Part shown: piece by piece, positions 21,356-21,620 of the stretch | Position numbering within the stretch: position 1 is the stretch's first letter | How the letters are laid out: every line of letters begins with the position of its first letter | Assembly: GCA_964355645.1 (NCBI GenBank) | Contig: CAYHDI010000002.1 | Span: 11,452 to 75,451 of the forward strand | Length of the DNA stretch: 64,000 nt | Direction of reading: 5' to 3' | Source of the DNA: an uncultured Candidatus Saccharibacteria bacterium | Lineage (GTDB): Bacteria > Patescibacteriota > Minisyncoccia > Phycocordibacterales > Zambryskibacteraceae | Made by a program: the position numbers and the translations under genes | The notes under the pieces: model-generated | The model's database searches: none | What the model saw: the letters and a program-made list of their open reading frames with translations, nothing else | What the model was told of the DNA's origin: nothing

Positions 21356-21620
21356 TGAATTTTAGAATTTTACAACGTAAAACACGGCTATGTGGCCGTG
21401 TGTGTTTCTGACTGTAGCCAGAGGGGGGAGCCCAGGGCCGGGTATTAACCGACCCTTGGGCATGAAGGCAGTTTGTACTTTGTCGACTAGCCTCTGTCTT
21501 CGTAAGCACGGAGGTTCCGAGTGGTTGAGAGTCTCCTTCGCGAGCTCTAGGTTGTGAGAGGCGCATCGCGCTCCCTTTTTGACAGTGGTCGTCGCGTGAC
21601 CCTGTTCTTCATCCACCCTA
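21356..21620. other. GC-rich (about 55%) non-coding block with hairpins; candidate structured RNA or foreign remnant
   Basis: No ORF is credible; only overlapping 81- and 84-aa shadow ORFs are present. Hairpins include cacggc-tatgtg-gccgtg, and gaggcgcatcgcgctccc followed by ttttt at about 21560-21590. A TTGACA box lies at 21638 on the reverse strand. Confidence 0.3.

What the first reader, a model, noticed from the sequence alone, without database searches (positions are those of the whole stretch)
21356..21620. GC-rich block of about 265 bp with no ORF, next to the DUF559 element: possible structured RNA
At about 55% GC the region has multiple stable hairpins and no credible ORF. A hairpin followed by TTTTT lies at about 21560-21590 on the plus strand, and a TTGACA box lies at about 21638 on the minus strand. 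I could not match it to RNase P, tmRNA, SRP or 6S RNA by eye.
Basis: seen in the sequence. Interest (0 to 1): 0.5.

Follow-up and report, generated by a model that had tools for sequence, protein, structure and literature searches.

The report
Orphan GC-rich non-coding transcription cassette
The GC-rich block is a real unit with its own promoter and terminator, about 225 nt long with no credible gene, but it is found only in this one groundwater Parcubacteria population, so it is at best a young orphan small RNA and not a conserved structured RNA.

Summary
Window 21356-21620 is 53% GC (core 56.5%), against 42% for the window, and it has no credible ORF. The sense strand is the minus strand. 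A perfect extended -10 promoter sits at 21643-21615 (TTGACA-N14-TGc-TAGGGT). It is followed by about 225 nt of hairpin-rich RNA (MFE z about -3.3) and an intrinsic terminator at 21401-21382 plus a U-run.

No Rfam family matches, even at E<=10, and ARAGORN finds no tmRNA. The two long minus-strand ORFs have no credible protein relatives.

The transcribed sequence has no homolog anywhere I could search. It sits in a hypervariable slot between rpsA (S1) and an MBL-fold gene. Relatives with 80% and 74% MBL identity have no insert. Relatives at 91% and 75% carry a similar promoter followed by unrelated GC-rich ORF-less sequence. Other relatives carry small secreted or membrane protein genes there.

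Best reading: a moron-like, lineage-specific promoter-to-terminator cassette that gives an orphan non-coding RNA, possibly a decayed gene cassette. Covariation cannot be tested.

The conserved structured RNA in this intergenic region lies elsewhere. It is the rpsA 5' leader at 20729-20801 (minus strand), which shows strong covariation.

The parts
21615..21643 (-). Promoter P1: TTGACA (21643-21638), a 14-nt spacer, extended -10 TGc, and -10 TAGGGT (21620-21615).
   Evidence: 3 matches in the window against 0.02 expected. The same promoter type drives cassettes in many related loci. It is 87% identical, with its upstream flank, to the one in L088.
21378..21607 (-). Predicted transcript of about 225-230 nt, which is the GC-rich block. 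The start is inferred about 7 nt after the -10, and the 3' end is in the U-run after the terminator hairpin.
   Evidence: GC is 56.5%. MFE is -79.6 kcal/mol with z -3.2 to -3.3. There is no Rfam hit at E<=10. There is no homolog. TSS and 3' end are inferred, not measured.
21582..21605 (-). 5' hairpin ACAGGGUC-ACGCGAC-GACCACUGU.
   Evidence: Present in both the MFE and the centroid structures.
21430..21461 (-). The most stable internal hairpin, GCCCAAGGGUCGG-UUAAUAC-CCGGCCCUGGGC.
   Evidence: in both MFE and centroid. Its 19-mer gave only chance hits in metagenome contigs.
21556..21575 (-). An SD-like AGGGAG plus ATG (21566) that opens the 81-aa ORF. It is folded into a small hairpin.
   Evidence: The ORF has no credible homologs and reads through the terminator.
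21372..21401 (-). Intrinsic terminator: a 7-8 bp stem (21401-21382) followed by UUUUACGUUGU.
21666..21686 (.). Hairpin plus T-run just upstream of P1, conserved with L088. It could be an insulating or bidirectional terminator at the cassette border.
   Evidence: alignment A4.
20881..21352 (+). Separate insertion: the DUF559 gene (20956-21309) nested between roughly 40-nt terminal inverted repeats. It lies between the block's terminator and the rpsA promoter P2.
   Evidence: Pfam DUF559, E 1.5e-31. Inverted repeats I1 and I5. Solo repeat copies occur elsewhere in the window.
20818..20846 (-). Proximal rpsA promoter P2 (TAGACA-N14-TGc-TATCCT). It is ancestral and present in relatives that lack the cassette.
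   Evidence: alignment A3.
20729..20801 (-). Conserved structured rpsA 5' leader. It is not part of the block but is the truly conserved RNA of this intergenic region.
   Evidence: Alignment A6 and covariation counts.

Best explanation
The block is an autonomous, lineage-specific transcription cassette inserted into the variable gap between rpsA (S1) and the divergent MBL-fold hydrolase gene. A strong sigma-70-type extended -10 promoter on the minus strand (21643-21615) drives a GC-rich, hairpin-rich RNA of about 225 nt (21607 to about 21378). The RNA has no credible coding frame and ends at an intrinsic terminator. The product is best described as an orphan (young or recently acquired) small non-coding RNA. 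Transcripts that escape the modest terminator would run antisense through the DUF559 insertion towards rpsA. Shown: the promoter and terminator signals, the composition, the lack of any family match or homolog, and presence/absence and replacement among relatives. Inferred: that it is transcribed, its ends, and that the RNA rather than a peptide is the product. No target or function is shown.
For: - The promoter pattern occurs 3 times in the window against 0.02 expected. The other two copies precede ORFs that start shortly downstream.
- A minus-strand terminator sits at the other edge of the GC block.
- MFE z is -3.2 to -3.55 on the minus strand and -1.3 to -2.2 on the plus strand. GC-rich coding islands give -0.9 to -2.7. 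Random windows average -0.27, and 3% reach -3.2.
- There is no 3-base periodicity (p=0.40), whereas the GC-rich coding islands of the same window give p=2e-9 and 0.013.
- The ORFs have no Pfam, PHROGs or NCBIfam hit. The word-indexed search of 5.8 billion proteins found no homolog of the 84-aa ORF. Only one marginal hit was found for the 81-aa ORF in 1.8 billion representatives, and I rejected it.
- Gene callers placed no gene on the block in the identical public contigs.
- Insertion status: relatives L085-87 (80% MBL identity) and L090-92 (74%) have only promoter P2 and a gap of 160-200 nt.
- L088 (91%) shares P1 and the P2/leader flanks. Between them it has an unrelated 330-nt ORF-less GC-rich block with its own terminator.
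- L100 (75%) has a similar P1 and a third unrelated body.
Against: - There is no conservation, so no covariation test is possible. Only 100%-identical copies exist (L001-L004, L101).
- A z-score of -3.3 is reached by about 3% of random windows, and part of it comes from the terminator hairpin.
- An 81-aa ORF with an SD-like AGGGAG 4 nt before its ATG exists.
- About two thirds of cassettes behind this promoter type in relatives are protein genes. A decayed or orphan coding cassette is therefore a serious alternative.
- The terminator U-run is short (4 U).
- No expression data are available.
Confidence: 0.45

Rival explanations
1. The block is the decayed remnant of a small, horizontally acquired GC-rich protein-coding cassette (promoter, leader, SD, ORF, terminator). 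The ORF has been lost to frameshifts, so the piece is transcribed junk or on its way to deletion.
For: The same slot in relatives often holds GC-rich small genes for secreted or membrane proteins, with the same promoter type and a terminator. The block keeps the cassette layout: a leader hairpin, an A-rich stretch, AGGGAG, then ATG 48 nt after the -10. Other GC-rich islands in the window are coding.
Against: There is no homolog in either long frame, no tblastx similarity to any cassette in 88 loci, and no residual codon periodicity. Streamlined genomes of this group would be expected to delete junk quickly (my own inference).
Confidence: 0.27
2. The block encodes a real orphan small protein, the 81-aa ORF starting at ATG 21566.
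For: An SD-like AGGGAG lies 4 nt upstream of the ATG, and the position relative to the promoter is typical of the coding cassettes.
Against: The ORF runs through the terminator hairpin and 60 nt beyond, into the DUF559 inverted repeat. Its composition is rich in R, S, P, H and C, as in out-of-frame GC-rich sequence. GC3 is the lowest of the three codon positions. The SD and ATG are buried in a hairpin. It has no credible homologs in 1.8 billion representatives. It was not called in the public contigs.
Confidence: 0.08
3. The block is a long upstream leader or extra promoter for rpsA. P1 transcripts read through the terminator into rpsA, and the structured RNA acts in cis as an attenuator.
For: The ORF-less GC-rich units in at least 12 lineages are always the unit directly upstream of, and co-oriented with, rpsA.
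Against: rpsA has its own conserved promoter P2 and a covarying leader that are present without the block. The block ends with a terminator. In this genome a 470-bp DUF559 element on the opposite strand separates it from rpsA. The bodies share no sequence or motif.
Confidence: 0.1
4. The block is a member of a conserved structured RNA family (a housekeeping RNA such as RNase P, 6S or SRP, or a new widespread motif).
For: It is a GC-rich island in a lower-GC genome, with hairpins, a promoter and a terminator.
Against: There is no Rfam hit at E<=10 and no tmRNA. The block is absent from the closest genomes or replaced there by unrelated sequence. The ORF-less units share no k-mer motif beyond chance.
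Confidence: 0.04

Closest known systems
Orphan or young bacterial small RNA genes (stand-alone promoter plus Rho-independent terminator in an intergenic region), as described for enteric bacteria. This comparison rests on my own knowledge.
   Same: The block has its own sigma-70-type promoter and an intrinsic terminator. It is roughly 100-300 nt long, has no credible ORF, occurs in a narrow lineage, and sits in a variable intergenic site.
   Different: There are no expression data, no known chaperone or target, and no relatives at all. The GC content is far above that of the host genome, which points to acquisition rather than birth from local sequence.
Phage 'morons': autonomous promoter-gene-terminator modules of deviating GC content inserted between conserved genes. 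This comparison rests on my own knowledge of the lambdoid phage literature.
   Same: It is a promoter-to-terminator unit whose GC content differs from its surroundings. It is present in some relatives and absent in others, and it lies between two conserved genes.
   Different: It lies in a housekeeping chromosomal region (pth, rpsA, MBL-fold gene, gyrA), not in a phage. The payload here has no ORF.
GC-rich long intergenic regions used to find structured ncRNAs (PMC8632094).
   Different: Candidates from that approach are accepted only when homologs show covariation. Here there are no homologs.
The E. coli rpsA leader (S1 autoregulation; no canonical SD). From my own knowledge; see also PMC3616713 for the narrow distribution of r-protein leaders.
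   Same: This comparison applies to the neighbouring motif at 20729-20801, not to the block. That motif is a structured leader directly before an S1 gene that lacks an SD.
   Different: The sequence and fold differ from the E. coli leader. Binding by S1 was not tested.

Membership tests
Any Rfam 15 family (including RNase P RNA, SRP RNA, 6S RNA, riboswitches, group I/II introns) | A covariance-model match at or near the family's gathering score. | tested here: not met
   There is no match in 21356-21620 at gathering score or at E<=10 with permissive filters. The nearest hit is a weak L20_leader hit at 21287-21413 (22 bits against a gathering score of 58.7). It rests only on the terminator hairpin and the DUF559 repeat.
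tmRNA | A tRNA-like domain plus a tag reading frame. | tested here: not met
   ARAGORN finds 12 tRNAs and no tmRNA in the window.
6S RNA | A rod-like fold with a large central bubble, about 180 nt long, conserved across related genomes. | tested here: not met
   The MFE and centroid structures are multi-branched with local hairpins. There is no Rfam 6S hit. The sequence is absent from sister genomes.
Stand-alone bacterial sRNA gene | Its own promoter. | tested here: met
   TTGACA-N14-TGc-TAGGGT at 21643-21615. The pattern occurs 3 times against 0.02 expected.
Stand-alone bacterial sRNA gene | A Rho-independent terminator at the 3' end. | tested here: met
   A 7-8 bp G+C-rich stem at 21401-21382 followed by TTTTACGTTGT. 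The U-run is short.
Stand-alone bacterial sRNA gene | No translated ORF. | tested here: inconclusive
   An 81-aa ORF with an SD-like motif exists. It shows no periodicity and has no credible homologs. Translation cannot be excluded without data.
Stand-alone bacterial sRNA gene | A detectable discrete transcript. | not testable with these tools
   No transcriptome data are available.
Conserved structured RNA motif | Homologs with compensatory base changes. | tested here: not met
   No homolog was found apart from identical copies.
Moron-like autonomous cassette | A promoter and a terminator flanking a payload of deviating GC content, present or absent between close relatives. | tested here: met
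   Searches give the signals and composition. Relatives at 80% and 74% lack it. Relatives at 91% and 75% have a different payload.
Moron-like autonomous cassette | Location inside a prophage or phage genome. | tested here: not met
   The neighbours are signal peptidase, pth, rpsA, the MBL-fold gene and gyrA. There is no phage or plasmid DNA match.
Integron gene cassette | An adjacent integrase, attI, and attC sites bounding the cassettes. | tested here: not met
   No integrase is among the genes called within several kb. The cassettes carry their own promoters, and no shared boundary motif was found. No attC model was run.
Degraded protein gene | Translated similarity to a protein family in some frame. 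| tested here: not met
   Only the two long minus-strand frames and the 55-aa plus-strand ORF were tested against libraries or databases.
rpsA 5' leader | Conserved upstream of S1 across relatives, contiguous with the start codon. | tested here: not met
   The block is absent in most relatives and separated from rpsA by a terminator, the DUF559 element and promoter P2. The conserved leader is at 20729-20801.

The most novel reading that the evidence does not exclude
The slot just upstream of rpsA in these Parcubacteria may host a hypervariable RNA gene. The promoter, and in one clade the terminator, are retained, while the transcribed GC-rich body is swapped for unrelated sequence between sister species. 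The window, L088 and L100 have three unrelated bodies. L099 differs from L016/L018/L032 in the same way. At least 12 lineages have ORF-less units there. This would suggest a class of rapidly exchanged non-coding RNA cassettes with a shared role, for example in host, phage or episymbiont interactions, or in S1/ribosome-related regulation.
Probability: 0.1. Interest if true: 0.6.

Novelty: new member of a known kind. Interest (0 to 1): 0.3.

Why it matters
If the block is transcribed, it would be one of very few candidate small RNAs in the Candidate Phyla Radiation, where regulatory RNAs are almost unknown. As a single-lineage orphan with no target it tells us little on its own. The more useful results are contextual. 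First, the rpsA-MBL gap is a cassette hot spot, where strong consensus promoters drive GC-rich payloads that are replaced between sister species. Second, a covarying rpsA leader that Rfam does not match lies next door.

Tried and rejected
1. Homology of the block to L018, L016 and L032. nhmmer gave E=7e-4, but the signal came from the shared promoter. With the promoter removed there is no hit.

2. Rfam at gathering score on the window and 20 relatives, and at E<=10 on the block and on the L018 and L012 units. Nothing relevant was found.

3. The metagenome-contig and viral-contig scans with the 19-mer of the main hairpin. These gave 5 chance hits, three of them in the 16S rRNA V3 region, and none resembled the flanks. 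The exact-match design could only find near-identical copies.

4. blastn in 'distant' mode against phages and plasmids. No match.

5. The phmmer hit P0121 (E=7.6e-5). It is a spurious ORF over a 177-nt x 3.2 tandem repeat in a 66%-GC phage contig. The score is inflated by the three repeats, and there is no DNA similarity to the block. I rejected it.

6. A shared motif among the 11 non-redundant ORF-less units. There is no k-mer enrichment over shuffles and no blastn modules beyond the S1 leader.

7. A copy of the block elsewhere in the 64-kb window, or long complementarity to a target there. None was found.

8. The block as part of the DUF559 element. It lies outside the terminal inverted repeats, which also occur as solo palindromes elsewhere.

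9. A strain lacking the DUF559 insertion. All public contigs are identical.

Full report
**Context.** The window comes from a Parcubacteria/Minisyncoccota (CPR) genome. This follows from the source names of the close homologs of its MBL-fold protein and from the record titles of related loci. The local gene order is signal peptidase, pth, rpsA/S1 (19606-20727, minus), a DUF559 gene (20956-21309, plus), the block, an MBL-fold hydrolase gene (21747-22328, plus), and gyrA.

**Observation.**
- The block 21356-21620 is 53.2% GC, and its core 21378-21607 is 56.5%. The window averages 42.3% (sd 5.4), which puts the block at the 96th percentile. Its flanks are 26-30% GC.
It belongs to a complete extended -10 promoter, TTGACA-N14-TGc-TAGGGT (21643-21615). 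That pattern occurs 3 times in the window against 0.02 expected. The other two copies precede ORFs that start shortly downstream.
- At the other edge of the GC-rich stretch the minus strand has an intrinsic-terminator-like hairpin (21401-21382) followed by UUUUACGUUGU.
It is the complement of an SD/ATG hairpin of the minus strand.
- Folding favours the minus strand. z is -3.55 against -1.33 for 256 nt, and -3.2 to -3.3 for the predicted 233-nt transcript. In my control, random 233-nt windows average z = -0.27 and 3% reach -3.2. GC-rich coding islands of the same window give -0.9 to -2.7.
- The structure signal is therefore real but modest, and part of it is the terminator.

**Known RNA families.**
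- Rfam 15 finds only 12 tRNAs in the window at gathering score. It finds nothing inside the block at E<=10.
- ARAGORN finds no tmRNA.
- The predicted fold is multi-branched, not rod-like as in 6S RNA.
- At about 225 nt the block is shorter than any bacterial RNase P RNA I know of.

**Coding potential.**
- Two ORFs span the block on the minus strand, of 84 aa (GTG 21616) and 81 aa (ATG 21566).
- The 84-aa ORF starts inside the -10 hexamer and has no other in-frame start until codon 52.
- The 81-aa ORF has an SD-like AGGGAG 4 nt upstream. However, it reads through the terminator hairpin into the DUF559 inverted repeat, and GC3 is its lowest codon position.
- The block shows no 3-base periodicity (p=0.40). 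The window's GC-rich coding islands show it clearly (p=2e-9 and 0.013).
- Pfam, PHROGs and NCBIfam give nothing.
- The word-indexed search of 5.8 billion proteins finds nothing for the 84-aa ORF.
- A full phmmer scan of 1.8 billion representatives with the 81-aa ORF gives one marginal hit, P0121 (E=7.6e-5). P0121 is a spurious ORF over a 177-nt x 3.2 tandem repeat in a 66%-GC phage contig, with no DNA similarity to the block. I reject it.
- Gene callers placed no gene on the block in the identical public contigs.

**Conservation.**
- I fetched 80 species-level loci through an alignment of MBL homologs, plus the closest relatives through exact-protein look-ups.
- The divergent rpsA/MBL pair is conserved in 65 loci, but the gap between the two genes ranges from 74 nt to 2.3 kb.
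- An initial nhmmer hit to L018, L016 and L032 turned out to be the promoter only. The transcribed part, 21370-21606, has no homolog in any related locus by nhmmer, blastn or tblastx.
- It has no match in the phage or plasmid collections. The metagenome and viral contigs, scanned with the 19-mer of the main hairpin, gave no true match, only chance hits.
- Only 100%-identical contigs of the same population exist. Covariation therefore cannot be tested.

**What relatives have at the site.**
- The relatives at 80% (L085-87) and 74% (L090-92) MBL identity have a gap of 160-200 nt. It holds only the proximal rpsA promoter P2 and the rpsA leader. P1 plus the block is therefore an insertion.
- The closest relative, L088 (91%), shares P1 and its upstream hairpin (87% identity) and shares P2 and the leader. 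Homology stops right after the -10 hexamer and resumes just before P2. In between lies an unrelated 330-nt GC-rich ORF-less sequence with its own terminator.
- L100 (75%) has a similar P1 and a third unrelated body.
- Across the clade, about two thirds of the units behind this promoter type are small GC-rich genes for secreted or membrane proteins. About one third are ORF-less, and those are always the unit next to rpsA.
- The ORF-less bodies fall into unrelated families: {L016, L018, L032}, {L012, L020}, and singletons. They share no motif beyond chance.
- The L016 family evolves at about the synonymous rate overall: 82% and 66% block identity against 78% and 61% at third codon positions of rpsA. 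It shows a few compensatory changes in its 5' hairpin and terminator.

**Interpretation.**
- The block is a lineage-specific promoter-to-terminator cassette in a recombination or insertion hot spot. It resembles phage morons in architecture but sits in a housekeeping chromosomal region.
- Its most likely product is an orphan non-coding RNA of about 225 nt (confidence 0.45).
- The main rival is a decayed remnant of one of the small GC-rich protein cassettes common at this site (0.27).
- Less likely rivals are an upstream leader or extra promoter for rpsA (0.10), a real 81-aa orphan protein (0.08), and a conserved structured RNA family (0.04).
- The DUF559 gene is a separate, later insertion. 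It sits between roughly 40-nt inverted repeats (20881-21352) that also occur as solo palindromes elsewhere in the window. It lies 28 nt beyond the block's terminator.
- Any read-through from P1 would be antisense to DUF559. This is an inference.

**Side finding.**
- The sequence between P2 and the S1 start codon (20729-20801, minus strand) is a conserved two-helix leader with an invariant GGCAA loop motif.
- In 32 sequences, 84.4% of cells are paired, against 66.3 +/- 1.3 in shuffles (0 of 500 reach the observed value) and 34-57% when partners are slid. 14 of 17 pairs show changes on both sides.
- Rfam does not match it, and rpsA has no SD here.
- This leader, not the GC block, is the conserved structured RNA of the region. 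By analogy with E. coli rpsA (my own knowledge) it is a candidate S1 autoregulatory leader.

**Verdict.** The 'structured RNA' reading is only partly supported: an RNA product is plausible, but no conserved family exists. The finding is of modest interest on its own.

Noticed in passing
window 20729-20801 (minus strand), directly upstream of the rpsA TTG start at 20727: A conserved two-helix rpsA (S1) 5' leader...CCCCGnnnnnGUUAYCCC-stem-(A/U)GGCAAMCAYUC-stem-GGACCnnnnnCGGC. It shows strong covariation in 32 Parcubacteria sequences: 84% of cells paired against 66% in shuffles (0 of 500 reach it), and 14 of 17 pairs with changes on both sides. There is no Rfam match and no SD before the start codon. 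It is a candidate S1 autoregulatory leader.
   Followed up: yes
window 20881-21352; solo copies at 50803-50874 and 12940-12978: The DUF559 gene is nested between roughly 40-nt terminal inverted repeats (ACACCTCACCCC...CCCCTCTCCTTGYTAAGGAGAGGGG). The same palindrome occurs without a gene at two other places. The copy at 50803-50874 lies inside ORF 50038-51087 and does not break its reading frame. Public assemblies break at this repeat.
   Followed up: partly
rpsA-MBL gap in loci L005-L100 (e.g. L017 2535-3001, L024 1102-3001, L088 857-1993): The gap between the divergent rpsA and MBL-fold genes is a hot spot, ranging from 74 nt to 2.3 kb. It is filled with one to three promoter-to-terminator units behind a TTGACA-N14-TGnTAnnnT promoter. 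Many units encode small signal-peptide or transmembrane proteins, and others have no ORF. Sister species carry unrelated payloads.
   Followed up: partly
L016 1470-1905, L018 1590-2015, L032 1780-2129 (minus strands); L099 1565-2150; L008 about 2220-2290: A roughly 450-nt ORF-less GC-rich unit upstream of rpsA is shared by three species. It has a few compensatory changes and a conserved 3' half containing a perfect SD-like AAAGGAGGUG with no start codon after it. L099 keeps only the terminator end. L008 and L099 share a two-hairpin motif (AUGC..CGAAG..GCAU AGGUGGG GUGG..CCAC).
   Followed up: partly
window 11223-11801 and 51183-52043 (plus strand): These are GC-rich islands (58-61% GC) that are protein-coding. 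The ORFs are 192 and 286 aa with signal-peptide-like N-termini. The first has a strong GC3 excess (0.77). They look like acquired genes of the same compositional class as the cassettes in the rpsA-MBL gap.
   Followed up: partly
window 21666-21686: A hairpin plus T-run immediately upstream of promoter P1 is conserved with L088 and reads as a terminator on both strands. In this genome there is no gene upstream of it on the minus strand. In L088 a 117-aa gene precedes it.
   Followed up: no
L098 4965-5531: A 177-nt x 3.2 tandem repeat (97% matches) lies between the Prp-like/146-aa genes and the capsid gene of a 66%-GC phage contig. It is annotated as the 189-aa protein P0121. Its origin is unexplained and it is unrelated to the finding.
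   Followed up: no
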